Virus record (IMG/VR): IMGVR_UViG_3300027734_000004
Location: 1-57,528 of that record
Length of the DNA stretch: 57,528 nucleotides
DNA from: a virus
Taxonomy: Duplodnaviria; Caudoviricetes
Direction: 5' to 3' (one strand)
Below are positions 7,953 through 33,301 of the stretch, piece by piece. Numbering within the stretch: the first letter of the stretch is position 1; every line of letters starts with the position of its first letter. The notes under the pieces were generated by a model, which had not been told where the DNA came from, ran no database searches, and saw only the letters and a list, made by a program, of their open reading frames with translations. A program made the position numbers and the translations under genes.

Positions 7953-8130
7953 TCCGGTAGAGTGGGTTGCAATGACGTTTGATCCCAAGATGCGTGTTGA
8001 CCCGCATTTCTTAATTCGCGTGATGAAGGGGCAGGTCAGCACCTTGACGGCTGATCAGTGGGAAGATGCCAAGGAATGCTGCGCTGACATTATTGAGCAG
8101 TTTATCTCTTTGCGGGAAGAGCATGACTGA
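7945..8130 (+). CDS. Hypothetical protein between the terminase subunits
   Basis: GAGG RBS; overlaps both neighbours. Confidence 0.6.
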   Translation: MPDPVEWVAMTFDPKMRVDPHFLIRVMKGQVSTLTADQWEDAKECCADIIEQFISLREEHD

Positions 8131-9759: not shown

Positions 9760-9972
9760 ATGAAGTATATTGGTCGCGTTAACGCATCTTGCACGGTTGA
9801 AGACCTTGGTCATAAGCAATTTGAGGTAGAAGTGTGGGGCGAAGTGCCTTTTGACCACAAGCGCACCTATACATTGAACGCTAAAGATGATAATTCAGCA
9901 GCAGAAGAAGGATTGCGTCTTTTTTGCGATGAGATGGAATGCCTTAGAAGCGCAGAAGCAAAGGAAGATTGA
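9760..9972 (+). CDS. Hypothetical protein
   Basis: GGAGG RBS; lies between terL and portal. Confidence 0.65.
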   Translation: MKYIGRVNASCTVEDLGHKQFEVEVWGEVPFDHKRTYTLNAKDDNSAAEEGLRLFCDEMECLRSAEAKED

Positions 9973-12284
9973 TGGCAACGCAACCGGGCCTCGCTCCAAT
10001 GAATATTCGTCAGCCTGCTCCAGATGAGCCGGGTGCGATTGACACGTCACCGATCCAAATCGACTTTGCAGATGAGAGTGGAGACACTCCTGAGACAGAT
10101 GAGAACGGGAATATCCTTTCAATTGAGCATGATGACGGTTCAATAACTGTTTCGCTTGATGGAAACCCGCTTGAATCGGCTGAAAATGGCGATGACGGCG
10201 ACTGGTTTGCCAATCTGGTCGATAAAATTGACGAAGCTGAACTTAATTCTATTTCTGGTGACCTGTTTCGCGGAATTGATGACGATTTGCTATCGCGTAA
10301 GGACTGGGTTGAGACACGGGCGCAGGGAATTAAGCTTCTTGGCCTGAAAATAGAGATTCCGGGCCTCACAGGGGCCGTTGACGGCGCACCGGTTGAAGGC
10401 ATGTCGCGTGTACGCCACCCATTGCTGCTTGAAGCTGTATTGCGCTTCCAAGCCAACTCCCGGTCGGAACTTTTGCCGACAGATGGACCTGTTAAGATCC
10501 GCAATGACGATAACAATGCGTCATTGCAGGAAGACCAGATTGCAAACGCGCTTGAGCGTGACCTTAATCACTATTTGACATCGACGGCGACGGAATATTA
10601 CCCCGACACCGACCGTATGTTGCTGATGCTGGGCTTTGGCGGCACGTCATTTAAAAAAGTTTATTATTGCCCGCTGCGTAACCGCCCTGTTTCAGAGACT
10701 GTGGACGCAGATGACCTGATCGTAAGCAATGACGCAACGGATTTGTCCAATGCGCGCCGCATTACGCACCGGATCATGATGCGCCCGTCAATTGTGAAGC
10801 GTATGCAGATCCTTGGCGTCTATCGTGACGTTGATTTAGGCACACCTAGCATGCGCCGCCTTGATCCATTGCAGCGCGAAGAGCGTGAGCAGCAGGGGAT
10901 TTCGTCTGATGCCACCAATCCGTTGGATCGTGATCGCGAAATTTACGAATGCTATTGCGAACTGGACATCAAGGGCTTTGAGCATAAGCACAAAGGCAAA
11001 ATATCTGGGCTTGAGATCCCATACCGTGTGACCGTTGACGTTTCCTCAAAGGAAATCTTGTCAATTGTCCGTAATTTTGATGAAGACACAGCAGACCTGC
11101 CAATAGCCAAGAGCAGCTTTGTTAAATACACGTTCGTACCGGGCCTTGGCTTTTACGACATTGGCCTGCTGCACATTCTGGGCAACACCACCAACGCCAT
11201 CACGGCTGCATGGCGCGAATTGCTGGATGCAGGTATGTATTCCAACTTCCCCGGCTTCCTAATGGCTGACACGGGCGCACGGCAGAACACCAACATCTTC
11301 CGGGTTCCTCCCGGCGGCGGCGCGTTAATTAAGACTGGCGGCATGCCAATATCACAAGCGGTTATGCCCCTGCCCTACCAGCCGCCATCGCAGGCGCTGA
11401 TGCAGCTTGTTAGCGACATGGCGCAGACCGGTGCTCGTATTGGCGGCACGTCTGAAATGCAGGTCGGTGAAGGCCGTGCTGATGCCCCTGTGGGCACCAC
11501 CATTGCCATGATTGAACAGGCCACCAAGGTCATGAACGCCGTTCACAAACGCCTCCACGCTGCACAAGCGGAAGAATTCCGTTTGCTGTGCGAGTGCTTC
11601 CGCGAAAACCCAGAAAGCTTTTGGCAGCGCAATGCCAAGCCAACTATGTCTTGGGATCAGGCAACATTTATTCAGGCGCTTGATGACTACGACCTTACGC
11701 CTCAGGCAGACCCCAACACAGCGTCACATGGTCAGCGCATCATGAAGATTACTGCCCTAAAGCAGCTTCAGCAGGCAAACCCATCGATGTACGATCCTAT
11801 CGCCATCGACGTTGCTGCATTGCAAGCTATTGGCTGGTCGAACCCGTCGCAGTTTATGGCACCGGCAAATGCGCAAGCATCACCACCGCCAGAACTGTTG
11901 CAGGCTCAGGCAAAAATGAAGAACGACGAAATGACCGCAAATGCGCGGATGATGGAAGCGCAGGCACGGGCAGCAGAAACACAAGCCAAGATCCAGTCTG
12001 GTGCATTTGCGCCAAAGCAAGAAGGTCCAGAAATGGGTCAGGCAGCGCTCAACGCCGCACAGGCAGATCTTATCAATGCCGAAACCAAGCGCAGCGAAAT
12101 TGGCGTCCGCCATCAAGAGCGTATGGTTGAAGATCAGAACCGCGATTTGGATCGTCAGAGCCGTGAGCGTGTTGCCATGTTGCAGCTTGCCCGTGACCTT
12201 GTAATGCATCCGGAGCAGGCTGAAGCTGTCGAGCCATTGGTTGGCCCGTCAGAGCGTAAATTTAATGAGGGCGAAGGCGAATGA
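9969..12284 (+). CDS. Portal protein (podovirus type with long C-terminal helical extension)
   Basis: Position after terL; HPLLLEAVLRFQA, GTSFKKVYY, GFYDIGL, VGTTIAMIEQ..KVMNAVHKRLH motifs. Confidence 0.88.
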   Translation: MMATQPGLAPMNIRQPAPDEPGAIDTSPIQIDFADESGDTPETDENGNILSIEHDDGSITVSLDGNPLESAENGDDGDWFANLVDKIDEAELNSISGDLFRGIDDDLLSRKDWVETRAQGIKLLGLKIEIPGLTGAVDGAPVEGMSRVRHPLLLEAVLRFQANSRSELLPTDGPVKIRNDDNNASLQEDQIANALERDLNHYLTSTATEYYPDTDRMLLMLGFGGTSFKKVYYCPLRNRPVSETVDADDLIVSNDATDLSNARRITHRIMMRPSIVKRMQILGVYRDVDLGTPSMRRLDPLQREEREQQGISSDATNPLDRDREIYECYCELDIKGFEHKHKGKISGLEIPYRVTVDVSSKEILSIVRNFDEDTADLPIAKSSFVKYTFVPGLGFYDIGLLHILGNTTNAITAAWRELLDAGMYSNFPGFLMADTGARQNTNIFRVPPGGGALIKTGGMPISQAVMPLPYQPPSQALMQLVSDMAQTGARIGGTSEMQVGEGRADAPVGTTIAMIEQATKVMNAVHKRLHAAQAEEFRLLCECFRENPESFWQRNAKPTMSWDQATFIQALDDYDLTPQADPNTASHGQRIMKITALKQLQQANPSMYDPIAIDVAALQAIGWSNPSQFMAPANAQASPPPELLQAQAKMKNDEMTANARMMEAQARAAETQAKIQSGAFAPKQEGPEMGQAALNAAQADLINAETKRSEIGVRHQERMVEDQNRDLDRQSRERVAMLQLARDLVMHPEQAEAVEPLVGPSERKFNEGEGE

Positions 12285-15200
12285 ACGACCCAAAGGCTAT
12301 CCGCAAAGCAATCATGACCGCACGAAACATTGCGGCTATGATCGATCCAAACTTTGCGCGTGTGCCTTTGCCCCAAATTGGGGAGCCTGATTACGAAGAG
12401 CAAAGGCCACCCTTGCAGTTTTCTATGGGTGGCAGGCTTCCTGCTCAACGGTCTGACAATCCATTTGAGCAATTCCAGTCACAAGATCCTTTTTCTTTCA
12501 ATTTGCCTGACCACCAATATGCTGCTGGCGGTGAGGTCTACGGCGACAATAGTAAGATCAAGGTTGTTGGAAATTACAAAGGTGAGCATCGTCTTGTTCC
12601 CATCAGCCCTAAAAATACTAATTACCGGCATGTTATGGAATATGTGCCAATTGACTGGCTTATGGAGCGGCGCGGCAATGAATATCGCCACTCGCCTGAG
12701 CGTATGGAGCAGCTTCGTAACGAGATTCAGGAAGAAGGACTGCGTGAACCGGTGCTTATCAGCACGGGTAAGAATTCCCGAACTTCAATTGTTGGTGAAG
12801 GAAATCACCGTGTTCTTGCCGCTAAACAGCTTGGCTACACCCATATCCCGGTAAGGGCTATGGTGGGTAGTTCAGCCGGTAGCGATGTGTTTCCGGAAGG
12901 CGCGCACGACGAAGATATTATCCCAAAGCCAAACGAGTATTTCCCATCTGACGCCAAGCCATCTCGCGTCATGCGCAGCTTGGGCTACGAAGGTCAGCCA
13001 GAACTTCCTGAGGATTGGTGGGAAAAGGGGTACGCCACTGGCGGTGGGGTTGATGACCACGTTGTCAATAATCCAATGTCAGTCTTTCCAAAGCCCCAGC
13101 GCATGTTTGACGAAGATATGCCGGGTGGCGCGTATCTATCCATGCCCGACAAGGAAGACGTTACGGGGCACCGCGCCGCGCAGGCGTCCATTGGCATTGG
13201 TGAAGGCGGCAAGCCATACTTCCACGCCTCACGCGATGCGGCTGACGAAACAGGTTCGCCCGGTAAAGGCAGCGCGCTGGTCAAGACCAATCTGTTTAAG
13301 CAACGTGCTGGATGGCGCTGGTTGGATGCGCCTGAGGGCCATGAAGGCACCAGTACCATTGTCTCTGTCGAGCATCGCGGCAAGCACCATTATGTGATGG
13401 ATGCGCATTTCCCCAAGGGCGTTGATCTTAGCCGCTACCCTGACGCCCCTTCTGAGCCTCGCCTGCGCCCCACTACCCGTGGTAACGTCGAACTGGGCCC
13501 ACAGGTAGGGTCGATCCTTGTTCGTGGTCGTGAGCATCCCGTACACAGCCACGCCATCGTGCGCGAGTATGGCGGGCGTGTGGGCTATGCTGACGGCGGC
13601 ATGCTTGATGATGAGCAACCCACAGACTATGCAGCACCAGACAATATGGGCTTGTACAGCCATGGTGCAGCAACGGCAGCAGCTTCCCCGCAGGCAAAGG
13701 CATCGCCCCAAGAGTTCCGCAGCATGCTGACCAATCGCGGCGTCAAGCCCAGCGAGTTTCAGGCATCTGGTTACGACCAAGCTTTTGCTGATCAGCCGCA
13801 GGTTACCCGCGAACAGGTTGCAGAGCATTTCCACCAAAACCGGACGCCGATTAAGGAAAGAGGTTTCTACACCGAAGACGCTAATACTGAAAGCATGGCT
13901 GCGCTTGAAAATGAATATTGGGATAAGAAGCGCGATTTGCAGGATCGCAAGTTGGCGTATCGCAATGCAAACCCAGATGCAGACATTTCCAACTTTGGCC
14001 GTGAGGAAGAAGAAGCCTTACGCCGTGAATTAACCGAAAAGCGCAGAGCCCTAAGGGAATCTGAATTACATATCGAAAGCGCAGGAGATCCGCACCACGA
14101 GGAGCATATGCTTCCGGGCGGTGAAAATTACCGCGAAATTGCTTTAAAGCATGGCGGCGATGATGTCATGTTTAAGGGGGTTAGTGGCCACCTTGGCGGT
14201 GAGCAGAATATTCTAGCGCATGTATTGATGAAGGACCGCACCGATTCTGAGGGTAAGCGCATCTTACATCTTGATGAATTGCAGAGCGACTGGGCCCAGC
14301 AGGGTCGTGAAAAAGGCTTTGATCAAGATCCAGAAACAAGCAAAAAGATTATTTCTGAATTTGACGATTACCACAAAAACCTTCGCGATCGCGCTTTAGA
14401 TCAGGTCACAAAACGCGCCAGAGATCTTGGCATGCCTGATGAAGATCTTTCAGACATTCGCAATGCAATTGCAAGTGAGCATGCCCACGAAAACTTGGCT
14501 TACTTTGCCGGTGGCGAAGAAGAGGCTGACCGCTACATAAAAATGCGCCAAAATGCAGAAAAAGCCCGTAACACAATGAGCCCAGCCCCTTACGTCACAA
14601 AGACGGATGACTGGGTTGATCTAGGGCTAAAGCGCGCCATGATGGAAGCTGCAAAAGGCGGGCACGATAAGCTTGCATGGTCGCCGGGTGACGTTGTTGC
14701 TGACCGCTACAACCTCAGCAAGCACATCAAAGACATCCACCACGAAAAGAACGATGATGGAACGTACAACGTCATAGCCCGCAGTCATCGGGGTGCAAAA
14801 GTTTATGACCAAGACGGGCTTGCTGAAAAAGACGTGGTAGATGCCTTAGGCAAGGAAGTTGCAGGTAAGATCTTTTCTGGCGAAGGAACTGGTCGCGAAG
14901 AGATTCAAGCTAAAATTGATGCTGCAAACAAAGACTTTGAAGATTTTAAAAGCAGGGCAGTTGAGGCTGACCTGCAAAGGCGCATTGGTGAATCGGACTC
15001 AAATGCAGATTTTATCAAAAAAAATCAGCAGGAATACAAAAATGTAATTAGCAATAATTTTGAAGAAAGTCCTTACACTTTTTCTCAAAACCTTGGCCTT
15101 GTCGATGAGTATAATGCGCTAACAAACAAATTAAGGCGCGCACATGATGACATGAAATTAGGCCCTTACTCCCCGTACCGTGATTGGCGCACGTTAAGCG

Positions 15201-17677
15201 GCGTCGATCTTACAATTGGCGGCGAGGGTATGAAGAAATTTTACAATGAGATGCTGCCTAAGCGCTTGATGAAGCTTGCCAAGCAGCATGATCCTGACGC
15301 CAAATTTTCTGTTTCAACCGTCAAGCATCCGTCAGAATATTCTGATGATTACGACAGAAGAGATTACATTTCCGACACCACTACCGACCTACCCACTTTG
15401 GAGATGACACCCAAGATGCGCGAAAGCATTTTGAAGAAGGGTTTTGCTGCCTATGCTGACGGCGGTGAGGTTGATGGTTACGACAAGGGTGGAAGCGTCG
15501 ATAGCTACCAAGATCCCGCCACGCAGCACATATCCGACTGGAACTGGCGTTCCGTTGGAGATGTTCAGGACAGCCTTGGCGGGATGAAGGAAATTCCTTC
15601 GCACGTCGAAAAGTTTGGCGACTTTATGGACACCATTGCTCAGCGCGCTGGTGGCAGCGGCCTTACGCCACGCGACCTGATCAAGGCATACACAATTACC
15701 CGGTCAAGCATTCAGCGTCGGGCCGCAGACGTTGATAAGCTGCGCGCATCTGGCCTTGATCTACCGGAGGAAATGACTGGTAAAATCCGCCCTGAAGGTG
15801 CTTTTGGCGAATGGTTGCACACACCAGCAGGCCAAGCATACCTTGACGCAGCGGAAAAGGGCAAGGTACACCAGACTGCAATCCAAAACGCAATTCAAGT
15901 CATGGCACCATTTGGCCGTCACCAGACAGACATTCCTGATGCCTTGACATGGGCTGCGCTTAACCTTCCGGGCAAGGAAAAGCAGGTATCTGAACTTGTT
16001 CACGCCGGTCACTTGATGGCAAGCACCCCAGAAGAATGGCGGGCGTTTACACAGCACATTCGCGGTGTCGGCCCCAGCAAGTCTGGTTTCCTTGCATCGC
16101 TTATGGGGCGCGGTGACCAGCCAACATTGGATGCGCGCCAGATTATCCTGCACACCGGGCGTCCAACCAAGGAAGCCAGCAAGTATATCGCCAAAAAGGG
16201 TGGCGCAGGAGGCGTTGAAGCCGTTGACCGCCTTGCAGCGCGCCAGAGCGCCATGGATCTGTCCCTTCCTGACCGTTTGAAGCCGTATTACCAGCACCTT
16301 GCTCACCATGCGGTTTGGGATAAGGCTGGCGATGAAGAAACAACGCACGAAGATGTTGTGCGCGCTATGCACCACGCTGCAAAGGGTGGTGCGCAAAATG
16401 CATACGACCAGCCCAGCATGCTTGAGCATCCGGTCACCAAGATATTTCAGGCAATCGGCATGGCTGGGTTGAATGACCCAAGCGTTGATCCTGCGAAATT
16501 CAAAGAATACCTAAAGCGGGCACAATACGCACTTGCGCGTAAGATTACGACTAAGGGTTCCGACGTTCTTGCATCCTATCCGGGCGCTGCAAACGTCAAG
16601 ATGAGTAAGTTTGGCAAGCCCCTTAGCGAAATGGAATCTACCACTGTTCAAAAGGGCTTTATGCTTCCGCGCAAAGAGGCCGACATTGAAGAAATGCAGC
16701 GGCGTGGTTCGCGAATTTTCCCATTCTTGGGTGATTTGTCACCCGCTGACCAAATCTTGCTCAAGACAGGTCAAACAAGCCTTGTTGACCCCAGCGAACA
16801 GCAGGGTGGCGCTGGTTTTATGCGCTCAGAGTTTGCGCAGGGCCGCGATCCCGCTGCTTATGGCAATCGTATTGGTGCAGCCAAAACACTTGCCAAAAAG
16901 ATTGCAGCACAGACGCCAGAGGGTACGCCTGCAATCGGTACGCACGTTGCCATGGGGCTTGGCAGCGTTGATTCATCGCACCATGCTTATGAGCCTATTT
17001 TGCGCATGATACCTAATTCACCAATTGCGCAAAAGCATATTGATGATTTTGATGACATGATGCGCGAAGCGCTACCGGCAACAAAAAAGTACCCCATGGC
17101 GTGGCCGGGTATCATGAACACCAAAGAGGCTGAGCAATTTTTTGCGGGCAGACCCGGTACACACGCATCGTTCTTTGCTAAAAAGATTGACAGTTCAAGA
17201 TGGCAGAAAGCTGGGTTCCCAGACATTGGAGAAGTCCGTTTTTCTGCATCAACACCAGAACTTCTTGGCGCACCGCGCTTATCAACTGGCAGCGCTTTTT
17301 CGCAGGTTGAGCCATCTGGTCGTATTGTAACCAATCCAGACCTTAAACATAAAACTTATCCTGCCCTTATCCCGTCTGAGGGTGAAGGGTATATGGGTGG
17401 ATCAAGCATCCCAATTCCAGCCAAACTAATGTTTAGTGATTTTTTTAAAACCATGAAAACAAAGGATAAAAGCGGGAAGGCCATTAATTACGACTCACCT
17501 ACTGGCCAAACTTTGTTTCAGCAGTCACTAATGACTAAAGTCCCATTCCAAGATGCTACGCAGGAATGGTTGGATAACATCATGGAAGACCGCCGCCAAA
17601 AGCAAGAGCAAGGCTTTAAAAAGGGCGGTAAAGTTCGTAGTGCGTTGATGATTGCCAAGGGTATGAAAAAAAGGTAA
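12281..17677 (+). CDS. 1798-aa modular (polyvalent-type) putative internal virion protein: ParB/Srx-like, unknown, ELQSDW module, HhH-GPD glycosylase-like and unknown modules separated by xxxGG motifs
   Basis: ParB-like EGLREPVLI...GEGNHRVLAAKQLGYTHIPV; HhH IRGVGPSKSGF...PTLDARQI; ATGA-coupled to portal. Confidence 0.75.
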   Translation: MNDPKAIRKAIMTARNIAAMIDPNFARVPLPQIGEPDYEEQRPPLQFSMGGRLPAQRSDNPFEQFQSQDPFSFNLPDHQYAAGGEVYGDNSKIKVVGNYKGEHRLVPISPKNTNYRHVMEYVPIDWLMERRGNEYRHSPERMEQLRNEIQEEGLREPVLISTGKNSRTSIVGEGNHRVLAAKQLGYTHIPVRAMVGSSAGSDVFPEGAHDEDIIPKPNEYFPSDAKPSRVMRSLGYEGQPELPEDWWEKGYATGGGVDDHVVNNPMSVFPKPQRMFDEDMPGGAYLSMPDKEDVTGHRAAQASIGIGEGGKPYFHASRDAADETGSPGKGSALVKTNLFKQRAGWRWLDAPEGHEGTSTIVSVEHRGKHHYVMDAHFPKGVDLSRYPDAPSEPRLRPTTRGNVELGPQVGSILVRGREHPVHSHAIVREYGGRVGYADGGMLDDEQPTDYAAPDNMGLYSHGAATAAASPQAKASPQEFRSMLTNRGVKPSEFQASGYDQAFADQPQVTREQVAEHFHQNRTPIKERGFYTEDANTESMAALENEYWDKKRDLQDRKLAYRNANPDADISNFGREEEEALRRELTEKRRALRESELHIESAGDPHHEEHMLPGGENYREIALKHGGDDVMFKGVSGHLGGEQNILAHVLMKDRTDSEGKRILHLDELQSDWAQQGREKGFDQDPETSKKIISEFDDYHKNLRDRALDQVTKRARDLGMPDEDLSDIRNAIASEHAHENLAYFAGGEEEADRYIKMRQNAEKARNTMSPAPYVTKTDDWVDLGLKRAMMEAAKGGHDKLAWSPGDVVADRYNLSKHIKDIHHEKNDDGTYNVIARSHRGAKVYDQDGLAEKDVVDALGKEVAGKIFSGEGTGREEIQAKIDAANKDFEDFKSRAVEADLQRRIGESDSNADFIKKNQQEYKNVISNNFEESPYTFSQNLGLVDEYNALTNKLRRAHDDMKLGPYSPYRDWRTLSGVDLTIGGEGMKKFYNEMLPKRLMKLAKQHDPDAKFSVSTVKHPSEYSDDYDRRDYISDTTTDLPTLEMTPKMRESILKKGFAAYADGGEVDGYDKGGSVDSYQDPATQHISDWNWRSVGDVQDSLGGMKEIPSHVEKFGDFMDTIAQRAGGSGLTPRDLIKAYTITRSSIQRRAADVDKLRASGLDLPEEMTGKIRPEGAFGEWLHTPAGQAYLDAAEKGKVHQTAIQNAIQVMAPFGRHQTDIPDALTWAALNLPGKEKQVSELVHAGHLMASTPEEWRAFTQHIRGVGPSKSGFLASLMGRGDQPTLDARQIILHTGRPTKEASKYIAKKGGAGGVEAVDRLAARQSAMDLSLPDRLKPYYQHLAHHAVWDKAGDEETTHEDVVRAMHHAAKGGAQNAYDQPSMLEHPVTKIFQAIGMAGLNDPSVDPAKFKEYLKRAQYALARKITTKGSDVLASYPGAANVKMSKFGKPLSEMESTTVQKGFMLPRKEADIEEMQRRGSRIFPFLGDLSPADQILLKTGQTSLVDPSEQQGGAGFMRSEFAQGRDPAAYGNRIGAAKTLAKKIAAQTPEGTPAIGTHVAMGLGSVDSSHHAYEPILRMIPNSPIAQKHIDDFDDMMREALPATKKYPMAWPGIMNTKEAEQFFAGRPGTHASFFAKKIDSSRWQKAGFPDIGEVRFSASTPELLGAPRLSTGSAFSQVEPSGRIVTNPDLKHKTYPALIPSEGEGYMGGSSIPIPAKLMFSDFFKTMKTKDKSGKAINYDSPTGQTLFQQSLMTKVPFQDATQEWLDNIMEDRRQKQEQGFKKGGKVRSALMIAKGMKKR

Positions 17678-17743: not shown

Positions 17744-19372
17744 ATGTCAGAGATGTCCCGCAACGCTCGTCGTGCAATGCGCGCTAAAATTCACCGCCTA
17801 ACCTCAGCACAAACGGGCAAGGTTGACGCTTCTGACTACGGTCCTGAGCAAGTTCTTGATTCTGAGGCCAAGACGGGCATGCGCCCAGTTTCGCGCCGCG
17901 CTTACAAGAAGGGCGGCAAGGTTGTCGCTGTTGCTGGCGCTGATGCCAAGCAGAATGCAGGCAAGAAGCCACGCGCAGGTAAGAAGCATCTTACCGTTGA
18001 CGCACTGGTTAACCGCAATTTGAAAGATGCAAACGAAGCCCGCGAAGGCAAGAAGCATATTGGTGGTTTGAAAACAGGCGGTCGGGCTACAAAGAAAGCT
18101 TATGGCGGATCGATGGATGAGGATATTTCCACGCGCCCAACAGACAGATACGGTAACCGCGCTACAGACAGAGATCTTGGCATGGTTCGTACTTCTGGCG
18201 GCATGCCAGATAGGGATATTTCTTCGCGCCCAACAGATAGTTCCGGTCGCCGCATAACCAATGAAGAACTTGGCATGGGTTACCCAGCAGAAGCGCGTCC
18301 AATGAAGCGTATGCCTCCCAAAGAGGCAGCTAAAGATGTTATGCGCGCTAAGCCTTCAGCAATGTCTGTGTCGGAAGCTATGGCCGGTATGCGTAATGGT
18401 CGCAAGCATGGCGGCGAGGCTTGGGAAGGTTCCGCTAAGGACGAATCGCAAGACAAGAAGCTTGCTAAAAAGTATGGCATGTCGATGGCAGCGTGGGAAA
18501 AGTCCCAGATGGACAAGAAGCACGACACCCAGCATTCGTCAAAGGGCTTGAATAAGGGCGGTCGCACTGGCAAGAGCCTTGGCGGTGTTTTGAAAGATGT
18601 CGGCAAATATGCCGCACTTGGCGTTGCGGGCAATGAAATTTTGAAAAACCCGTCCTTGCTCATGGGTGGTCTTGGCGCTTTGGCGTACAGCCGGTTTGGC
18701 AAGAAAAAGGGCGCACCGGGCGCACCGGGCGCACCGGGCGCAACGGCAAACGCATCACCAACGCCAGCAGTCGCAGGCAAGAAGAGTGGTGGCGGTTTGT
18801 ACGCAAACATCAACGCCAAGCAGGAGCGGATCGCGAATGGCTCAAAGGAGCGTATGCGCAAGGTCGGCAGCAAGGGTGCGCCAACCGCAGAAGCATTTAA
18901 GCAATCTGCGCGTACTGCTAAAGCCCGTGGCGGTTACACCTCACTGGATGGCGAAATGCAGACACAAGAAAAGGTAAGCGGTCGCGTTGCCAAGTATCAG
19001 GGCGGTAGCCTTTCTGGCCTTGAAATGAATGCTGGTGGTCGTGCTAAGAAGAAGAAGAGCGGCACCAATATCAACATTGTAATTGCAACTGGTAAGGGCC
19101 AGCCACAAATGGACCCTAATATGCAGCAAGCACCTTCACCTCAGGGTGTACCGGTGCAGATGCCACCTCCACCACAGGCTGGCGCTCCTATGCCTATGCC
19201 CATGCCAATGCCAATCCCAATGCCGCAAGCAGGCGGTCCGGGCGCAGGTCCTGCACCAATGCCACGCAAGGCTGGTGGCCGCACCTACCGTTCTTATAAG
19301 GACATGGATGCAGGCGCTGGAAGCGGTCTGGGTCGTTTGGAAAAGACGGAGATCCAAAAACGTAAAAAGTAG
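17744..19372 (+). CDS. 542-aa Lys/Gly-rich low-complexity protein with about 12 xxxGG motifs (putative internal head protein)
   Basis: AGGAG RBS; basic composition; Pro/Met-rich tail. Confidence 0.75.
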   Translation: MSEMSRNARRAMRAKIHRLTSAQTGKVDASDYGPEQVLDSEAKTGMRPVSRRAYKKGGKVVAVAGADAKQNAGKKPRAGKKHLTVDALVNRNLKDANEAREGKKHIGGLKTGGRATKKAYGGSMDEDISTRPTDRYGNRATDRDLGMVRTSGGMPDRDISSRPTDSSGRRITNEELGMGYPAEARPMKRMPPKEAAKDVMRAKPSAMSVSEAMAGMRNGRKHGGEAWEGSAKDESQDKKLAKKYGMSMAAWEKSQMDKKHDTQHSSKGLNKGGRTGKSLGGVLKDVGKYAALGVAGNEILKNPSLLMGGLGALAYSRFGKKKGAPGAPGAPGATANASPTPAVAGKKSGGGLYANINAKQERIANGSKERMRKVGSKGAPTAEAFKQSARTAKARGGYTSLDGEMQTQEKVSGRVAKYQGGSLSGLEMNAGGRAKKKKSGTNINIVIATGKGQPQMDPNMQQAPSPQGVPVQMPPPPQAGAPMPMPMPMPIPMPQAGGPGAGPAPMPRKAGGRTYRSYKDMDAGAGSGLGRLEKTEIQKRKK

Positions 19373-19650: not shown

Positions 19651-20043
19651 ATGCCACATATGAATATGACTCATGAAGAAGACCCAAAGGAACTGATTCT
19701 TCAAGCATTGGGCGATATTGAAAAGTTTAAAGTGTTCCACAATGAAGTGGTTGTCGCTGTGTATTTGCGTCCGGAAAAGACCAAAAGCGGCATTTACTTG
19801 CCGGATCAGCACCGCGACGAAGACCGCCACCAGAGCAAGGTCGGACTTGTTGTTAAGATGGGTTCTGAAGCTTTTGACGATCCCAACGGTAACTGGTTCC
19901 GGGGTATGGATGTAAAGCTACATGATTGGGTTGTTTACCGCCCGTCAGACGGCTGGACAATTACCGTCAACAACGTGCTTTGCCGTGCGTTAAAAGATAC
20001 AAACATTCGGGGCAGCGTCCCCCATCCCGATATGATCTGGTAA
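19651..20043 (+). CDS. groES: GroES/Cpn10-like co-chaperonin
   Basis: Mobile loop EKTKSGIYLPD, VGLVVKMG, VKLHDWVVY, ALKDTNI. Confidence 0.85.
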   Translation: MPHMNMTHEEDPKELILQALGDIEKFKVFHNEVVVAVYLRPEKTKSGIYLPDQHRDEDRHQSKVGLVVKMGSEAFDDPNGNWFRGMDVKLHDWVVYRPSDGWTITVNNVLCRALKDTNIRGSVPHPDMIW

Positions 20044-20053
20044 GGAAGCTAAA

Positions 20054-20938
20054 ATGAATATTGAAGATAATGCAGAAGAGCAGTTTGAAATTGAACTGAG
20101 CGAAGATCCAAAGCCAGCGGAAGACATTATTGTTGAAAAATCGGAGGATAAAAACTCTGACCCGGTAGATGACACCCTTGAGGCCCTAAAGGGTCAATTG
20201 GAAGAAGAGCGCAAAGCGCGTCAGGAAGCCCAGCGCCGTGCAAGCGAAGCCGAATATTCGGCGTATGAGGCAAAGGGTGAGGTGCAGGACACAAGCTTGC
20301 ATCTGGTGTCAAATGCCATCGATACAGTCCTTCAGAACAATAATATCCTAAAAGCAAATTACCGTGACGCAATGTCTATGGGTGATTTTGACACTGCGGC
20401 TGACATTCAGTCGGAGATGTCTTCCAACGCAGCCAAACTTCTTCAGCTTGAGCAAGGTAAGCAGGCGCTGGAAAATCAACCACGTCAACCAGCCCCAACG
20501 CCTTATGTTTCTGACCCTGTTGAGGCTTTGGCATCGCAGCTTTCGCCACGATCTGCTGACTGGGTGCGCCGGAATCCGCAATTTGCCACAGAACCGCGCC
20601 TGTATCAAAAGATGCTGGCAGCGCACAATCTGGCGATGGCAGATGACATTCCTGCGGATTCTGACGATTATTTTGACGCAATTGAAGATATTCTCCACGT
20701 CCGCAGTCAGGATAATAGACGTGATTATGACGCCATGGCTGACGCTGCAAAGCCAACGCAGCGCCGCGCAGCACCGCCAGCAGCCCCTGTTTCGCGCAGT
20801 GGCGGCGGCGGCGGAAGCAGGCCAAACCGTGTGACGCTTACCGCAGCAGAGCGCGATATAGCCAGCATGATGGGTATGACGCCTGAGGAATATGGCCGCA
20901 ACAAGCTTACCCTTCAAAAAGAAGGTAAAATGAATTAA
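20054..20938 (+). CDS. Putative capsid scaffolding protein
   Basis: Acidic coiled coil; C-terminal VTLTAAERDIASMMGMTPEEY; position before the capsid genes. Confidence 0.7.
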   Translation: MNIEDNAEEQFEIELSEDPKPAEDIIVEKSEDKNSDPVDDTLEALKGQLEEERKARQEAQRRASEAEYSAYEAKGEVQDTSLHLVSNAIDTVLQNNNILKANYRDAMSMGDFDTAADIQSEMSSNAAKLLQLEQGKQALENQPRQPAPTPYVSDPVEALASQLSPRSADWVRRNPQFATEPRLYQKMLAAHNLAMADDIPADSDDYFDAIEDILHVRSQDNRRDYDAMADAAKPTQRRAAPPAAPVSRSGGGGGSRPNRVTLTAAERDIASMMGMTPEEYGRNKLTLQKEGKMN

Positions 20939-20955
20939 ATTTAAGGAGTATTATT

Positions 20956-21621
20956 ATGGAAACTATTGCACCAAAAAAGCGCGGACGCCCACCAAAGGTT
21001 AAGGAAGCCCTTGATCAAGCAGCCCAAAATGCCGCAGAGGCGGTAAATATAAATGATTTGGAAGAGGCATATGAGCCCCTTGCTGTTGCACCAGAGGCAA
21101 CGCATGCAGACATTACGCCAACAATTCGTGAAGATATTCGGGCCCCAATGCGTGAAGAAGATCCCCGCACCCGTGCTGCGCGCCGTGCCGCAGAACTTCG
21201 TGATCACCTTGGCGATTTGGATGAAGGCACTGATGACTTTTACATCAATAAGGCTGACATCCCACCGGGCTGGGAATATGAATGGAAGCGTAAGCTTTTG
21301 ATGGGCGCTGAAGATCCTGCCTATCAAGTGGCGCTGGCCCGCTCCGGTTGGGAAGCTGTTCCCACGTCGCGTCACCCATCCTACATGCCAAATAGCGGCA
21401 ACCACCCTATAATTGAACGCAAGGGTATGGTCCTTATGGAGCGTCCATCAGAAATATCTGATGAGTCCCGTGCAATTGAATTACGCAAGGCGCGTAATCA
21501 GGTCAGGCAAAAGGAAGCCCAGCTAAATTCCGCAGAAGGCGGGCAGTTTGAGCGGGCAAATAAAGACCAATCGCTGGTCAATATTCGAAAATCATACGAC
21601 TCAATTCCAATTCCGCAGTAA
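20956..21621 (+). CDS. Conserved head-module hypothetical protein
   Basis: AAGGAG RBS; IPPGWEYEW...GWEAV...GMVLMERP. Confidence 0.75.
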   Translation: METIAPKKRGRPPKVKEALDQAAQNAAEAVNINDLEEAYEPLAVAPEATHADITPTIREDIRAPMREEDPRTRAARRAAELRDHLGDLDEGTDDFYINKADIPPGWEYEWKRKLLMGAEDPAYQVALARSGWEAVPTSRHPSYMPNSGNHPIIERKGMVLMERPSEISDESRAIELRKARNQVRQKEAQLNSAEGGQFERANKDQSLVNIRKSYDSIPIPQ

Positions 21622-21637
21622 GGAAATTGGGTAAATC

Positions 21638-21662
21638 GGGCGGCTATATGCCGCCCTTTTTA
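21638..21662 (+). terminator. Rho-independent terminator
   Basis: GGGCGGC-TATAT-GCCGCCC-TTTTT. Confidence 0.8.
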
Positions 21663-21670
21663 TTGTATTG

Positions 21671-21703
21671 TTGACAAACAACAAAAAATAAACGATTTAT
21701 AGG
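21671..21703 (+). promoter_or_regulatory. Putative capsid-operon promoter
   Basis: TTGACA at 21671 just after a terminator, with an AT-rich spacer; the -10 element is weak. Confidence 0.5.
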
Positions 21704-21704
21704 A

Positions 21705-21761
21705 AATCTCCCCCGGTGCGGAGATTCAAAAAACCCAGTCTTAGTCGCCCCGGTGCGCGAT
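21705..21761 (+). promoter_or_regulatory. Twin hairpins with identical CCCGGTGC loops in the 5' leader of the capsid operon
   Basis: AATCTCC-CCCGGTGC-GGAGATT and GTCGC-CCCGGTGC-GCGAT. Confidence 0.6.
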
Positions 21762-21788
21762 GATGGCTTCCTAAAAAGGAGACCCGTC

Positions 21789-22376
21789 ATGGCCAATACC
21801 AATGCGCCTTTCGGTTTTAGACAGTTAAGTGGGACTGGTTCTGCTCCGACTTACGAGCAGGTTGTGGGCTTTTGCGCTTACAATACCGCTGCTATGTATT
21901 TCGGTGACCCCATTTACCAGAACGCTAACGGTTCAGTATTCCCTGACACACCCGGCACTGGCATCCTTGCTGGTGTTTTCGCTGGTTGTAAGTATCTTTC
22001 AGTTTCGCAGAAGCGTACCGTTTGGTCAAACTTCTGGGGCGCTGCTGACGTAGCTTCTGGCAACACCGTTGAAGTTTACTTTGTTAACGATCCGAATGCC
22101 AAGTTCTTGGTTCAGACGGGTTCGACGGGCGCAACAGTTGCGGCCATCGGCGCTAACGTGCAGTTTTCATACGGTACGCCAAACACGATGAGCGGCATTT
22201 CAGGCGCTTTTGTGGACATCACCACCGCAGCAACCACGGCTACTTTGCCGTTCAAGGTTGTTAGCCTTGACGTAGACCCGCCCGGTTCAAATGGTTCCGA
22301 AGCTGGCGCATACAATTATGTAATTGTTGCGTTCAACAACGTATCCACCAAGACCCTAAACGCCATCCACACATAA
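21789..22376 (+). CDS. Minor capsid/cement-like protein (MANTNAPFGF...)
   Basis: AAGGAG RBS; directly upstream of the major capsid gene; beta-rich. Confidence 0.7.
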   Translation: MANTNAPFGFRQLSGTGSAPTYEQVVGFCAYNTAAMYFGDPIYQNANGSVFPDTPGTGILAGVFAGCKYLSVSQKRTVWSNFWGAADVASGNTVEVYFVNDPNAKFLVQTGSTGATVAAIGANVQFSYGTPNTMSGISGAFVDITTAATTATLPFKVVSLDVDPPGSNGSEAGAYNYVIVAFNNVSTKTLNAIHT

Positions 22377-22390
22377 GGGAGTAAGGTACC

Positions 22391-23305
22391 ATGGCTGTTA
22401 ATTTATCAGCAATTAAAGACCTTCTGCTCCCCGGTTTACGGGGCGTAGAAGGCAAGTACGAGATGATCCCATCTCAGTACGACAAGATCTTCACAAAGCA
22501 CGATTCGAAGCTTGCGCTCGAACGTACCGCTGAAATGCGTTACCTTGGTCTTGCTCAGTTGAAGACTGAAGGCGGTCAAACGTCTTTCGATAACGGCGCT
22601 GGTGAGCGTTATGTATACAACCAAGAGCATAACGAAATTGCTCTTGGCTATGCAATCACGCGCAAAGCCATCGACGATAACCTGTACAAGACCCAGTTCC
22701 AACCATCGAACCTTGGCTTGATTGAATCATTCCAGCAGACCAAGGAAATCTACGGTTCGAACATCTTGAACACGGCAACAACCTACAACGCCAACATTGG
22801 CGGTGACGGCGTAGCACTTTGCTCGACTGCTCACCCTATTGATGGTGGTACGGTTGCCAACACGCCGACCACTCAGGTCGATCTGAACGAAGCCACGCTG
22901 TTGAATGCAATGATTTCAATTCGCACAAACTTCAAGGATCAAGCTGGTCTGAAGGTCTTCGCCCGTGGCCGTAAGCTTATCGTTCCGCCGCAGCTTGAGC
23001 CTGTCGCTATCCGCCTTACCAAGACGGAACTCCGTCCGGGTACAGCAGATAATGATGTCAATGCTGTGCTCAGCACCAGTGGTGGCCTTCCAGAAGGCTA
23101 CATGGTCAACGACTTCTTGACGTCGGCCTACGCTTGGTTCCTTCTGACCAACATCGACGGTTTGTCGTACATGGAGCGCGTCAAGTTCGAAACCGACATG
23201 CAAGTCGATTTCGTAACCGACAACCTCTTGGTCAAGGGTTATGAGCGTTATAGCTTTGGCTATTACAACTGGCGTTCGATCTACGGTTCGTTCCCAACGT
23301 CTTAA
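22391..23305 (+). CDS. Major capsid protein (HK97 fold, Mu gpT-like group)
   Basis: LLLPGL, KTEGG, ALGYAITRKAIDDNLY, GGDGVALCSTAHP, LIVPPQL, ERYSFGYYNWRSIYGS. Confidence 0.9.
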   Translation: MAVNLSAIKDLLLPGLRGVEGKYEMIPSQYDKIFTKHDSKLALERTAEMRYLGLAQLKTEGGQTSFDNGAGERYVYNQEHNEIALGYAITRKAIDDNLYKTQFQPSNLGLIESFQQTKEIYGSNILNTATTYNANIGGDGVALCSTAHPIDGGTVANTPTTQVDLNEATLLNAMISIRTNFKDQAGLKVFARGRKLIVPPQLEPVAIRLTKTELRPGTADNDVNAVLSTSGGLPEGYMVNDFLTSAYAWFLLTNIDGLSYMERVKFETDMQVDFVTDNLLVKGYERYSFGYYNWRSIYGSFPTS

Positions 23306-25357: not shown

Positions 25358-26047
25358 ATGACCGTAAGCGGCACTTTTAATTACAATCCGTCGCTTGGCG
25401 AACTGACACTGTATGCCTTTAACCTGTGCGGCATTCGCAATACTGCGTTGCTTCAGGAGCATATGGAATCAGCGCGCATGGCAGCGAACCTGTTGCTTGG
25501 CCGCTGGTCTTCTGAGGGTGTTAACCTGTGGATGGTAAACCTTCAAACAATCCCACTGGTTGCAGGCCAATCAGAATACACATTGCCTGCCAATAACATT
25601 GTCATGCTCGACACCTATATTGAGACTGACGATGGCTCTGGACCGCCAATTGACCGCTTGATCTTGCCAATCAGCCGCACTGAATATGCTTCATACCCCA
25701 ATAAAGAGCAGCAGGGCTTCCCCACAACGTACTGGCAGGACCGTCAGATCACTAGCACTGTGTCGCTGTGGCCAGTCCCTGATGGCACCCAGACGTCTTT
25801 GAAATACTATCAGGTATGCCAGATTGATGACGCTGACTTTGCCAACGGACAAACGGTCAACGCCCCTGTCTATTTCCTTGAGGCTTTTGCTTATGGGTTG
25901 GCGCAGCGTTTAGCCATGATTTGGGCTCCAGATCGCCTTCAGATCTTAAAGCCTTTGGCCGACGAAGCTTATCAAATTGCAGCAATGCAGAACGTGGAAA
26001 CAGCCCAGCAGTACATTTCCCCAATGATCTCTGGCTATTTTAGGTAG
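25358..26047 (+). CDS. Head-tail adaptor / tail tubular protein A-like
   Basis: ANLLL..W..EGVNLW, ISRTEY...PNK..QG.P, LWPVPD; position. Confidence 0.65.
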   Translation: MTVSGTFNYNPSLGELTLYAFNLCGIRNTALLQEHMESARMAANLLLGRWSSEGVNLWMVNLQTIPLVAGQSEYTLPANNIVMLDTYIETDDGSGPPIDRLILPISRTEYASYPNKEQQGFPTTYWQDRQITSTVSLWPVPDGTQTSLKYYQVCQIDDADFANGQTVNAPVYFLEAFAYGLAQRLAMIWAPDRLQILKPLADEAYQIAAMQNVETAQQYISPMISGYFR

Positions 26048-33231: not shown

Positions 33232-33301
33232 TTATCAGCACTAGAACATTGTCTTAATATTTGGTAGAACGCAGCGAACACTTTTATTGCAGCGGGACGC
33301 C

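What the first reader, a model, noticed from the sequence alone, without database searches (positions are those of the whole stretch)
12281..17677. 1798-aa cassette protein after the portal, with five modules bracketed by GG motifs
Seen: GG motifs at nt 12419, 12518, 13031, 13562/13586, 15452/15479, 16376 and 17615 divide the ORF into modules. A (about 12533-13030) is ParB/Srx-like with GNHR. B (about 13046-13561) is unknown and His-rich. C (about 13601-15451) contains AHVLMKDR...LHLDELQSDW. D (about 15494-16372) is HhH glycosylase-like. E (about 16391-17614) is unknown. Established: large polyvalent proteins of phages and plasmids deliver arrays of anti-host domains. Inference: this is an interchangeable effector array, packaged and injected with the DNA and released by GG cleavage.
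Basis: partly seen in the sequence, partly recalled or inferred. Interest (0 to 1): 0.8.

Follow-up and report, generated by a model that had tools for sequence, protein, structure and literature searches.

The report
Phage cargo protein with glycine joints
The gene after the portal gene of this uncultured 57.5-kb phage encodes one 1,798-residue protein built from five swappable enzyme-like modules, each fenced by the same short glycine peptide, which looks like an undescribed joint or signal for proteins that the phage probably carries in its head.

Summary
ORF 12281-17677 (1,798 aa) follows the portal gene with a 4-nt overlap. Its strict joint motif, [FYW]-[ASDKEN]-x-G-G-x-[VIL], occurs 7 times against 0.06 in shuffles. 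It occurs only twice more in the six-frame translation of the genome, once in the next gene.

I counted 59 architectures, some with permuted module order. One relative splits the array into three genes at module borders.

- A: ParB/Srx-like.
- B: unknown.
- C: the constant core, weakly GNAT-like.
- D: HhH-GPD glycosylase fold (Z 15.8).
- E: weakly YTH/ASCH-like.

A second signal is a basic helix at both protein ends.

Packaging, injection and cutting are inferred. I recognised no head protease. Two mapped cuts support cutting: T5 pb2 (before A-E-G-G) and P22 gp7 (before K-G-G, by a host protease). Motifs at extreme C-termini fit a docking tag instead.

It is a new variant of the known polyvalent proteins. 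I found no published description of the joint. This scan noted the same motif earlier in other genomes.

The parts
9969..12284 (+). Portal gene (SU10-type). Its stop overlaps the start of the finding's ORF (ATGA).
   Evidence: PHROG portal E 9.8e-31; Pfam SU10_portal E 2.3e-17; overlap seen.
12281..17677 (+). The 1798-aa polyvalent (multi-module) protein, P0001.
   Evidence: 594 homologues with E<=1e-3 among 8000 scored candidates.
12281..12433 (+). N-terminal leader (aa 1-51): a basic amphipathic helix (about aa 5-21, nt 12293-12343), a Pro-rich spacer and the first GG word (FSMGG at 12419). It is the part shared by most homologues.
   Evidence: Alignment ends at q51 in 28 homologues. The helix pattern is in the first 30 aa of 122 of 258 relatives.
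12518..12538 (+). Joint 1 (YAAGGEV), between the leader and module A.
   Evidence: 24 homologues break here.
12533..13030 (+). Module A: ParB/Srx-like domain with GNHR.
   Evidence: PHROGs ParB-like and methyltransferase N-domain E 8.5e-10 to 4.8e-8, aa 111-194; Pfam ParB_N E 0.0012, below the cut-off.
13031..13051 (+). Joint 2 (YATGGGV), between A and B.
   Evidence: 38 homologues break here.
13046..13561 (+). Module B: fold and function unknown. It is mobile: found before C, after C, or absent.
   Evidence: no Pfam, PDB or Atlas lead. Not folded here.
13562..13606 (+). Joint 3, tandem (EYGGRV + YADGGML), between B and C.
   Evidence: 85-87 homologues break here.
13601..15451 (+). Module C: the constant core. 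A mixed sheet with invariant His/Asp/Glu/Arg residues plus long helical inserts; weakly GNAT-like. Internal variable stretch at about aa 860-980.
   Evidence: AF2 pLDDT 84.9; VIA Z 8-9.9 to acetyltransferases; 9296 representative clusters with E<=1e-3; BFVD hits to phage polyvalent proteins.
15452..15499 (+). Joint 4, tandem (YADGGEV + YDKGGSV), between C and D.
   Evidence: 28 and 73 homologues break here. The helix just before it is part of the folded C domain.
15494..16372 (+). Module D: HhH-GPD DNA-glycosylase fold (Ogg2/EndoIII-like). It carries the GVGxxK...D pattern, invariant in 37 sequences.
   Evidence: VIA Z 15.8, rmsd 3.0, 205 of 209 residues of 3n0u; Foldseek prob 0.99, TM 0.61, E 0.14; invariant K196 and D213 of the segment.
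16373..16630 (+). Joint 5 (AAKGGAQ at 16376) and a stretch of about 85 aa predicted disordered.
   Evidence: pLDDT under 50 for model residues 294-379; 37 homologues break at the GG.
16631..17611 (+). Module E core: alpha/beta domain, weakly YTH/ASCH/EVE (PUA-like). It is always the last module. A second version only about 28% identical replaces it in many relatives.
   Evidence: AF2; VIA Z 7.8 to 4.4, about 125 residues aligned.
17615..17674 (+). Last joint (FKKGGKV) followed by the C-terminal basic helix (aa 1786-1798).
   Evidence: Tail logo from 154 relatives anchored at the last GG; helix predicted at model residues 713-724 with low confidence.
17744..19372 (+). Next gene: a 542-aa basic, Gly-rich protein with the same kind of N-terminal helix and many [K/R/Y]-x-x-G-G words. 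Probably a second member of the same cargo set.
   Evidence: 16 GG. Loose motif 10 times against 0.8 in shuffles, maximum 5; one strict motif; orthologues in 9 related loci.
19651..23305 (+). Rest of the head module: GroES-like gene (19651-20043), scaffold-like gene (20054-20938), two unknown genes, major capsid gene (22391-23305). No protease recognised.

Best explanation
P0001 is a phage-type polyvalent protein: a string of unrelated enzyme-like modules. From its place and its relatives, it is probably loaded into the procapsid with or next to the portal and leaves the virion at infection.

The array is leader - ParB/Srx-like - unknown B - GNAT-like core C - HhH-GPD glycosylase-like D - PUA-like E - tail helix. 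It is built from cassettes. Each cassette ends in the seven-residue joint G-[Y/F]-A-x-G-G-x-V. Lineages gain, lose and reorder cassettes exactly at that joint.

Two signals frame the cargo. One is a short basic amphipathic helix at the N-end and/or the C-end, which I read as the loading signal. The other is the joint, which always lies between that helix and the cargo and between cargoes.

My preferred reading is that the joint is a recognition site at which the chain is cut, at or just before the A/K-x-G-G. Cutting would free the modules and shed the helices. The protease would not be a recognisable phage gene; a host enzyme is the leading candidate.

Shown here: the ORF, the motif statistics, the cassette behaviour, the folds of C, D and E, the terminal helices and the conserved gene order. 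Inferred: packaging, ejection, cutting, the identity of the protease and every enzymatic activity.

The confidence given is for the whole statement including the cut. The cassette architecture alone I hold at about 0.9.
For: - Motif: 7 against 0.06 in shuffles, and nearly confined to this gene and the next one in the whole genome.
- Cassette behaviour: 325 of 533 alignment ends lie at the nine joints. There are 59 architectures in 119 homologues, including N-D-C-B-E. Joints are residue-exact: the leader is joined straight to B in P0007, and A straight to C in P0003.
- Mosaic identities within one protein pair, for example P0029: N-A 93%, C 59%, E 28%.
- In phage MW202675 and locus L077 the array is three genes, split at the start of C and the start of D. 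Each product keeps a terminal helix and/or an end joint.
- The same helix pattern sits in the first 30 aa of 122 of 258 relatives and in the last 25 aa of 106 of 258. Internally it occurs about 0.009 times per 30-aa window.
- The motif is general. In 136 diverse representatives of module C there are 218 instances against 11.8 in shuffles, and 121 of 136 have at least one.
- Virion context: the order TerL - portal - polyvalent gene(s) - basic GG protein - GroES - scaffold - two unknowns - capsid protein is conserved in 8 related loci, and the ORF start overlaps the portal stop.
- Relatives carry cell-wall hydrolase and amidase modules, which would act at entry, and ART-PolyVal.
- Precedents for cutting next to such a word: T5 tape measure pb2 is cut after R1127 (passage in PMC10038345), and the T5 record reads ...P-R | A-E-G-G-M-M... 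there.
- Lambda gpH carries a perfect G-Y-A-T-G-G-Y-V at aa 778 and F-A-T-G-G-F-T at 733. These lie in the Gly-rich C-terminal region where it is cut at a site and by a catalyst still unknown (passages in PMC12617516).
Against: - No proteomic or other direct evidence shows that P0001 is in virions or is cut.
- I recognised no head protease. Pfam on 21 window ORFs found a peptidase family only in a tail-fibre chaperone, apart from one sub-threshold match noted next. PHROGs on 21 ORFs and NCBIfam on 4 gave none. The scaffold-like gene matches only the C-terminal, non-protease end of Mu gpI, at E 0.019 and below the cut-off. The capsid protein has no propeptide-like N-extension.
- 21 of 258 relatives (17 of the 136 diverse ones) end within six residues after the motif, where there is nothing worth cutting off. 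In the split-gene relatives the upstream protein keeps the whole motif at its end.
- The T5 and P22 sites share only the x-G-G core and a preceding A or K with the joint. They have R or E where the joint has Y/F. They are two single sites.
- Proteins of 2,000-5,000 aa that hold module C mostly lack the motif, so it is not needed for C itself.
Confidence: 0.45

Rival explanations
1. Docking tag, not a cut site. The joint (an aromatic anchor, a tight Gly-Gly turn, then Val) is a short linear motif that binds a pocket inside the procapsid (capsid protein, scaffold or portal), like the cargo-loading peptides of encapsulins. On this reading every module and the many-motif basic protein are tethered to the shell by avidity, and the chain stays whole until ejection.
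For: - The motif sits at the extreme C-terminus in 21 of 258 relatives, and within 25 residues of the end in 145 more.
- Tandem copies occur at two joints.
- The neighbouring basic protein has 10 loose motifs against 0.8 expected.
- No protease gene was recognised.
- The capsid protein is unusually conserved: 85-99% identity in relatives whose portals are 62-66% identical.
- Encapsulin loading peptides are recalled, not tested here.
Against: - No partner is known.
- The joint always lies between the terminal helix and the cargo, an order that a pure docking tag does not need.
- The T5 and P22 precedents are cuts.
- Tethered folded modules of 200-600 aa would still have to unfold and leave through the portal.
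Confidence: 0.27
2. Passive linker and recombination scar. The word is only a flexible, protease-resistant spacer. Its shared coding sequence gives microhomology for in-frame cassette exchange, and no protein reads it.
For: - Break points are exact at the word.
- Two joints in this gene share 15 identical bases (13586 and 15452).
- Terminal motifs could be relics that travel with each cassette.
Against: - Codons differ between most joints of this gene. Meanwhile the peptide is kept across proteins only 33-45% identical in the rest of module C and in hosts' bins of many phyla. That points to selection on the peptide.
- Conserved flanks, Gly at -1 (243 of 457) and Val at +6 (323 of 457), are more than a linker needs.
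- The word recurs in a non-modular basic protein and in tape measure proteins.
Confidence: 0.13
3. Not a virion protein. On this reading it is a late-expressed cytoplasmic multi-enzyme that acts on DNA (ParB-type nuclease, glycosylase, base reader, acyltransferase), for instance in modifying or repairing phage DNA before packaging. Its place beside the portal would reflect timing only.
For: - Modules A, D and E all have nucleic-acid-related folds.
- No direct evidence of packaging exists.
Against: - The position between the portal and scaffold genes is conserved, and the ORF start overlaps the portal stop.
- Relatives swap in peptidoglycan hydrolases and ART-PolyVal modules.
- The terminal helix and joint code is shared with the other genes of the portal-to-scaffold interval.
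Confidence: 0.08

Closest known systems
Phage-type polyvalent proteins (Iyer, Burroughs, Anand, de Souza, Aravind 2017, PMC5512222; passages read)
   Same: - A large single polypeptide that strings together unrelated effector-like domains, encoded among head genes.
- ParB-superfamily and GNAT domains, with ART-PolyVal and InPase in relatives.
- Strong mosaicism.
- Predicted to be packed in the head and injected.
   Different: - That paper proposes processing by an in-chain zincin-like peptidase (MPTase). None is detectable here.
- Its main text holds no occurrence of 'linker' or 'glycine', so the joint word and the terminal helices are not described there.
- HhH-GPD ('glycosylase': 0 occurrences) and a YTH/ASCH-like module are not in its text.
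MuF / SPP1 gp7 type head proteins encoded after the portal, often fused to toxins (as summarised in PMC5512222 and PMC9503650, passages)
   Same: The gene lies directly after the portal gene, and the product carries cargo enzymes.
   Different: No Phage_Mu_F match at E<=1. The constant core here is module C, a different and weakly GNAT-like fold.
Maturation cut of the T5 tape measure protein pb2 into pb2* and pb2C (Linares et al. 2023, PMC10038345, passage); cut of lambda gpH (PMC12617516, passages)
   Same: - An ejected protein is cut between two functional parts next to an A-x-G-G word (T5).
- Lambda gpH holds a perfect copy of the joint word near its cut region.
- The catalyst is unknown in both. 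Host involvement for T5 is known to me only from the title of a 1973 paper in the reference lists.
   Different: - These are tail proteins, not head proteins, with one site each.
- T5 has Arg where the joint has Tyr/Phe.
- The lambda site is not mapped.
- T5 figure S5G and table S3 were not visible to me.
P22 ejection protein gp7, whose 20-residue leader is removed by host oligopeptidase A (note in GenBank record BK000583)
   Same: - A short-tailed phage with no head protease of its own (recalled).
- An ejected protein with an N-terminal leader that is cut off just before K-G-G.
- The cut is made by a host enzyme.
   Different: A single small protein with no modules. The leader sequence is unrelated and the spacing of the aromatic residue differs.
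T4 Alt and internal proteins with capsid-targeting sequences removed by the head protease gp21; adenovirus and African swine fever virus precursor cleavage at Gly-Gly-X (recalled, not tested)
   Same: The logic is the same: a loading signal, then a short conserved cut site, then cargo. Gly-Gly marks the junctions in viral precursor proteins.
   Different: Those systems encode their own protease and the cut sites differ. No homology was found.
Encapsulin cargo-loading peptides (recalled, not tested)
   Same: A short Gly-containing peptide at the end of, or between, cargo domains, inside an HK97-fold shell.
   Different: No sequence match. Binding was not shown here.

Membership tests
Phage-type polyvalent proteins (Iyer et al. 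2017) | One polypeptide with several unrelated globular domains of disparate predicted activity | tested here: met
   Five modules. A is ParB-like, C GNAT-like, D HhH-GPD, E YTH/ASCH-like, B unknown.
Phage-type polyvalent proteins (Iyer et al. 2017) | Encoded by a phage or conjugative element, in phages among virion or head genes | tested here: met
   Lies between the portal and the scaffold and capsid genes. The same order holds in 8 related loci.
Phage-type polyvalent proteins (Iyer et al. 2017) | Shares the family's signature domains (ART-PolyVal, InPase, ParB, LPDs and others) | tested here: met
   Homologues and module-C partners carry PF18760 ART-PolyVal, PF18823 InPase and PcfJ. BFVD matches are named 'Large polyvalent protein associated domain' and 'ART-PolyVal-like'. 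P0001 itself has only the ParB-like one.
Phage-type polyvalent proteins (Iyer et al. 2017) | Packed in the virion and delivered with the DNA | not testable with these tools
   No virion proteome exists for this uncultured phage or for the relatives found.
Phage-type polyvalent proteins (Iyer et al. 2017) | In-chain zincin-like peptidase (MPTase) for processing; a common theme rather than an obligatory feature | tested here: inconclusive
   No Pfam hit. The H-H-E-E-H stretch in C keeps only His166 and Glu167 in relatives.
MuF / SPP1 gp7 head protein family | Phage_Mu_F domain | tested here: not met
   No match at E<=1 in Pfam for P0001 or in 21 members of alignment A1.
ParB/Srx superfamily (module A) | ParB N-terminal domain with the conserved Gly-x-x-Arg box | tested here: inconclusive
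   Pfam ParB_N scores 19.3 bits, under the 26.3 cut-off. Ten PHROG families hit (seven ParB-like partition proteins or nucleases, plus one each annotated DNA methyltransferase, nuclease and unknown function), best E 8.5e-10. G-N-H-R is present. Not folded.
HhH-GPD DNA glycosylases (module D) | Two-lobed all-helical fold of the superfamily | tested here: met
   VIA Z 15.8, rmsd 3.0, 205 of 209 residues of Tm1821 Ogg. Ranks 1-15 are all HhH-GPD-fold enzymes, 13 of them DNA glycosylases or endonuclease III and two the DUF2419 queuine salvage enzyme, and further glycosylases follow down to rank 37. Foldseek prob 0.99, TM 0.61, but E 0.14.
HhH-GPD DNA glycosylases (module D) | Helix-hairpin-helix with Gly-Val-Gly, a Lys in the hairpin and an Asp about 20 residues later (pattern recalled) | tested here: met
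   G-V-G-P-S-K ... L-D-A-R-Q. K196 and D213 of the segment are invariant in 37 sequences. The residue-level match to a solved enzyme was not inspected.
GNAT acyltransferases (module C) | GNAT core fold | tested here: inconclusive
   VIA Z 9.9 to 6.9, 110-140 residues aligned. At least 17 of 50 rows are acetyl- or acyl-transferases by title. Foldseek on PDB gave nothing at E<=1e-3. The tool warns that Z 7-8 is common.
GNAT acyltransferases (module C) | Acyl-CoA pyrophosphate-binding motif Q/R-x-x-G-x-G/A after strand 4 (recalled) | tested here: inconclusive
   A Q-Q-G-R-E-K-G stretch follows the strand L-H-L-D-E-L, but the spacing does not fit the recalled motif.
YTH / ASCH / EVE (PUA-like) base readers (module E) | PUA-like barrel | tested here: inconclusive
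   VIA Z 7.8 to 4.4 to YTH, ASCH, PH1033 and the McrB N-domain, about 120-135 residues aligned across large inserts. Atlas gave no lead.
Viral precursor proteins cut at Gly-Gly by a virus-encoded protease (adenovirus, ASFV type) | A cognate protease gene in the genome | tested here: inconclusive
   None recognised in 21 ORFs by Pfam, 21 by PHROGs and 4 by NCBIfam. Small and early ORFs were not scanned.

The most novel reading that the evidence does not exclude
The basic end helix plus the G-[Y/F]-A-x-G-G-x-V joint would be a general 'load and cut' code for proteins that tailed phages eject. On this reading the code is shared by head cargo arrays, small basic head proteins and tape measure proteins (T5 pb2, lambda gpH). 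It would be read by a host protease or by the assembling particle itself, not by a phage head protease. That would name the unknown site and catalyst of the lambda gpH cut. It would also give a rule for splitting thousands of giant phage proteins into their working parts.
Probability: 0.2. Interest if true: 0.85.

Novelty: new variant of a known kind. Interest (0 to 1): 0.7.

Why it matters
Polyvalent proteins are thought to be a phage's first strike on the host, but how such long chains are loaded, separated and diversified is unknown. This case gives three things.

1. A residue-exact rule for where modules begin and end. Module C alone has 9,296 representative clusters with E<=1e-3, and 121 of the 136 diverse representatives examined carry the joint.
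2. Two candidate signals, the end helix and the joint, that can be tested by simple mutagenesis and virion mass spectrometry.
3. A possible link to two old open questions: what cuts the tape measure proteins of lambda and T5, and where.

If the joints are true cassette borders, they also mark natural places to swap a module of choice into a laboratory phage in order to study delivery.

Tried and rejected
- Megablast of the gene against 50,697 phage records gave no match. tblastn gave only 4 records, and 5 with a diverse representative as query.
- Sequence searches gave nothing for B, C or E: Pfam on P0001, PDB by profile A1 (best E 0.69), Pfam on 21 members of A1, PDB by P0001 (only SbnI, a ParB-fold protein, E 0.2), NCBIfam.
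- Foldseek on PDB with model C gave nothing at E<=1e-3. The protein Atlas gave nothing for B (best 0.87) or E (best 0.81), both in the range that shuffled proteins reach.
- Complex prediction of the capsid protein with the leader (aa 1-95) gave no verdict (score 0.02 against a mark of 0.32). This counts neither for nor against binding.
- Protease hunt: see the Against line. A zincin reading of H-H-E-E-H in C was rejected because only His166 and Glu167 are conserved. A Walker-B reading of L-H-L-D-E-L was rejected because there is no Walker A. Spontaneous Asp-Gly cleavage was rejected because Asp holds that place in only 148 of 457 motif instances.
- Literature: four searches found nothing on the joint. 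They were 'prohead protease' + Gly-Gly + bacteriophage (0 papers); polyvalent protein + capsid + proteolytic + injected (2 irrelevant); six motif strings (491 papers; the 25 listed are mostly PCR-primer papers and none concerns phage proteins); and phage + polyprotein + capsid cargo + portal. PMC5512222 and PMC9503650 hold no 'linker'.
I did not see the Iyer supplements, or T5 figure S5G and table S3.
- The scan's own index had nothing for this genome or for module C by sequence.
Full report
**What is there.** The window is a whole 57,528-base contig, the only one of its assembly. It carries a tailed-phage genome:
- large terminase 8130-9749;
- SU10-type portal 9969-12284;
- two SU10-type adaptor paralogues;
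- tail fibres;
- a Mu gpT-like capsid gene 22391-23305.

The finding's ORF, 12281-17677, is intact, starts at ATG and encodes 1,798 residues. Its start overlaps the portal stop as ATGA.

**The motif.**
- Plain GG is only mildly enriched: 24 against 14 expected.
- The full word is far beyond chance. [FYW][ASDKEN].GG.[VIL] occurs 7 times against a mean of 0.06 and a maximum of 2 in 2000 shuffles.
- In the six-frame translation of the whole genome it occurs only twice more, once in the very next ORF.
- A logo from 457 instances in 120 family members adds positions that my pattern did not force: Gly before the aromatic residue (243 of 457), Val two residues after the Gly-Gly (323 of 457), then Asp or Glu.

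**The modules are cassettes.** A word-indexed search found 594 homologues with E<=1e-3 among 8000 scored candidates, and 120 were listed.
- BLASTP of P0001 against the 119 others gave 533 internal alignment ends. Of these, 325 lie within 12 residues of the nine motif GGs (10.7% of the length), and only 39 lie near the other 14 GGs (16.9% of the length).
- A rough parse gives 59 architectures among the 119. N-C-E is the commonest (15). Permutations such as N-D-C-B-E occur. None equals this one, N-A-B-C-D-E.
- Joints are exact. One relative joins the leader's word straight to the first residues of B, and another joins A's word straight to C.
- Identity jumps at joints within one pair of proteins, for example 93%, 59% and 28%, as expected from recombination.
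- In phage MW202675 and in locus L077 the array is three genes, whose borders are the start of C and the start of D.
- One exception: C has an internal variable stretch (aa 860-980) that is not at a joint.

**What the modules are.**
- **A** (aa 85-250) matches ParB-like families in PHROGs (E 8.5e-10 to 4.8e-8). It matches Pfam ParB_N below the cut-off and has G-N-H-R.
- **B** (aa 256-427) gave no lead and was not folded.
- **C** (aa 441-1057) is the constant core.
  - By itself it finds 9,296 representative clusters at E<=1e-3 (6,528 at 1e-10) among 1.84 billion, in proteins of about 360 to 6,800 residues.
  - Its partners include ART-PolyVal and InPase.
  - The AlphaFold model is good (pLDDT 84.9). 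It has no Foldseek match in the PDB.
  - It matches 25 uncultured-phage proteins in BFVD, several named as polyvalent-protein domains.
  - In the exhaustive aligner, at least 17 of 50 rows are acetyl- or acyl-transferases at Z 9.9-6.9. I call this weakly GNAT-like.
  - Iyer et al. do describe a GNAT family next to ART in phage polyvalent proteins (passage). I could not check whether it is this one.
- **D** (aa 1072-1364) has an HhH-GPD DNA glycosylase fold. The best match is Z 15.8, rmsd 3.0, 205 of 209 residues of the Thermotoga Ogg, followed by endonuclease III, MagIII, OGG1, MutY and others (Foldseek prob 0.99, E 0.14). The hairpin Lys and the downstream Asp are invariant in 37 sequences.
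- After joint 5 comes a stretch of about 85 residues predicted disordered.
- **E core** (aa 1451-1777) resembles YTH, ASCH, EVE and the McrB N-domain at Z 7.8-4.4. This is suggestive only.
- No modelled domain crosses a joint.

**A second signal and a second gene.**
- The pattern [KRQ]-x-[AS]-[ILMV]-x-[ILMVT]-[AT]-[KRQHSN] lies in the first 30 residues of 122 of 258 family proteins and in the last 25 residues of 106 of 258. Internally there are 98 matches in about 320,000 residues.
- At the N-end the helix is followed by a joint, at a median distance of 44 residues. At the C-end the last joint is followed by the helix.
- The next ORF (17744-19372) is a basic, Gly-rich protein with the same kind of N-terminal helix and 10 loose motif words against 0.8 expected.
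- It and the order portal - array - basic protein - GroES-like - scaffold - two unknowns - capsid protein recur in 8 related loci.
- The other genes of the portal-to-GroES interval carry the same end signals.

**How it most likely works.**
- The place after the portal, the start-stop overlap with the portal gene, and relatives that swap in peptidoglycan hydrolase, amidase and ART modules all fit the published idea of head-packed, injected polyvalent proteins. None of this is direct evidence.
- For the joint I weigh three readings.
  - **Cutting.** This is favoured by the constant order helix - joint - cargo - joint - helix and by two mapped cuts.
    - T5 pb2 is cut after R1127 (PMC10038345, passage), which in the T5 record lies immediately before A-E-G-G-M-M.
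    - P22 gp7 loses its first 20 residues to host OpdA according to the record's note, and the cut lies immediately before K-G-G-K-G-G.
    - Lambda gpH has a perfect joint word at aa 778 and a near one at 733, in the region where it is cut at an unmapped site by an unknown catalyst (PMC12617516, passages).
  - **Against cutting.**
    - I recognised no head protease.
    - The scaffold-like gene has no protease part, and the capsid protein has no propeptide.
    - 21 of 258 relatives end within six residues of the word.
  - **Docking** (rival 1) would explain the words at the extreme C-terminus, the tandem words and the many-word basic protein.
  - **A passive linker** (rival 2) explains the shuffling. 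It does not explain why the peptide, with its flanks, is kept across very distant proteins while its codons differ.
- I put cutting at about 0.45, docking at 0.27, a passive linker at 0.13 and 'not in the virion' at 0.08.

**Range.**
- Relatives of module C lie on contigs binned with many bacterial phyla. Many are phage-sized contigs of 50-60 kb. Some lie in long contigs, including one isolate genome, so the host of this phage stays unknown.
- The giant proteins of 2,000-5,000 residues that contain C mostly lack the joint. The joint goes with the phages that have this head module and the helix signal.

**Known or new.**
- The kind, a polyvalent protein, is known.
- I did not find the joint word, the end helices, or an HhH-GPD glycosylase module in such a protein in the text of PMC5512222 or PMC9503650, or by four literature searches. 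Supplements were closed.
- Earlier notes of this same scan report the same word at module borders in other uncultured phages and gave me the T5 lead. I checked that lead against the paper and the T5 sequence. Those notes are not independent evidence.

**Verdict.** It is a new variant of a known kind. The mechanism of the joint is open and testable.

Noticed in passing
window 17744-19372: A 542-aa basic (18% Lys+Arg), Gly-rich (14%) protein with 16 GG. It has an internal 44-residue match to PHROG 16028 (unknown function) and a C-terminal end, ...Y-K-D-M-D-A-G-A-G-S-G-L-G-R-L-E-K..., that is conserved in orthologues of 9 related loci. Its small-residue and Leu pattern loosely recalls encapsulin loading peptides (recalled).
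   Followed up: partly
window 19651-20043: A GroES/Cpn10 homologue (Pfam E 4.1e-10, above the cut-off) sits inside the head module, between the cargo genes and the scaffold gene. It is conserved in 8 related loci.
   Followed up: partly
window 22391-23305 and loci L001, L004, L005, L011, L048, L077: The capsid protein is 85-99% identical across phages whose portals are 62-66% and scaffolds 44-66% identical (L004 and L005 are near-identical throughout). This conservation is unusually strong for a capsid protein.
   Followed up: no
window 20956-21621: A conserved 221-aa protein between scaffold and capsid genes, with an AT-hook-like N-end. It has no family match in Pfam, PHROGs or NCBIfam, and its function is unknown.
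   Followed up: partly
window 25358-26047 and 33287-34084: Two paralogous SU10-type adaptor proteins (Pfam E 6.2e-11 and 1.7e-12) lie 7 kb apart.
   Followed up: no
window 37625-42904: A 1759-aa protein with two stretches of the Peptidase_S74 intramolecular chaperone and tape-measure-like and ejection-protein-like PHROG hits. It does not carry the joint word.
   Followed up: no
window 55556-57526: A PrimPol + AAA_25 primase-helicase ORF runs off the 3' end of the contig. The assembly is therefore cut inside this gene, or is a permuted circle.
   Followed up: no
L087 (lambda J02459), gpH aa 733-739 and 778-785: The lambda tape measure protein carries F-A-T-G-G-F-T and a perfect G-Y-A-T-G-G-Y-V in the C-terminal region that is removed or cut during tail maturation. 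The cut site is unmapped according to PMC12617516.
   Followed up: partly
L088 (P22 BK000583), gp7 aa 1-26: According to the record's note, the P22 gp7 leader is removed by host OpdA after residue 20. Residues 21-26 read K-G-G-K-G-G.
   Followed up: partly
loci L006, L025, L030, L082: In more distant relatives the module-C gene lies between the terminase and portal genes, upstream of the portal instead of downstream.
   Followed up: no
loci L013, L015, L016, L018, L024, L049 and others: Module C also sits deep inside giant proteins of 2,800-5,100 aa, one of them in an isolate genome (Draconibacterium mangrovi). These have few or no joint words.
   Followed up: partly
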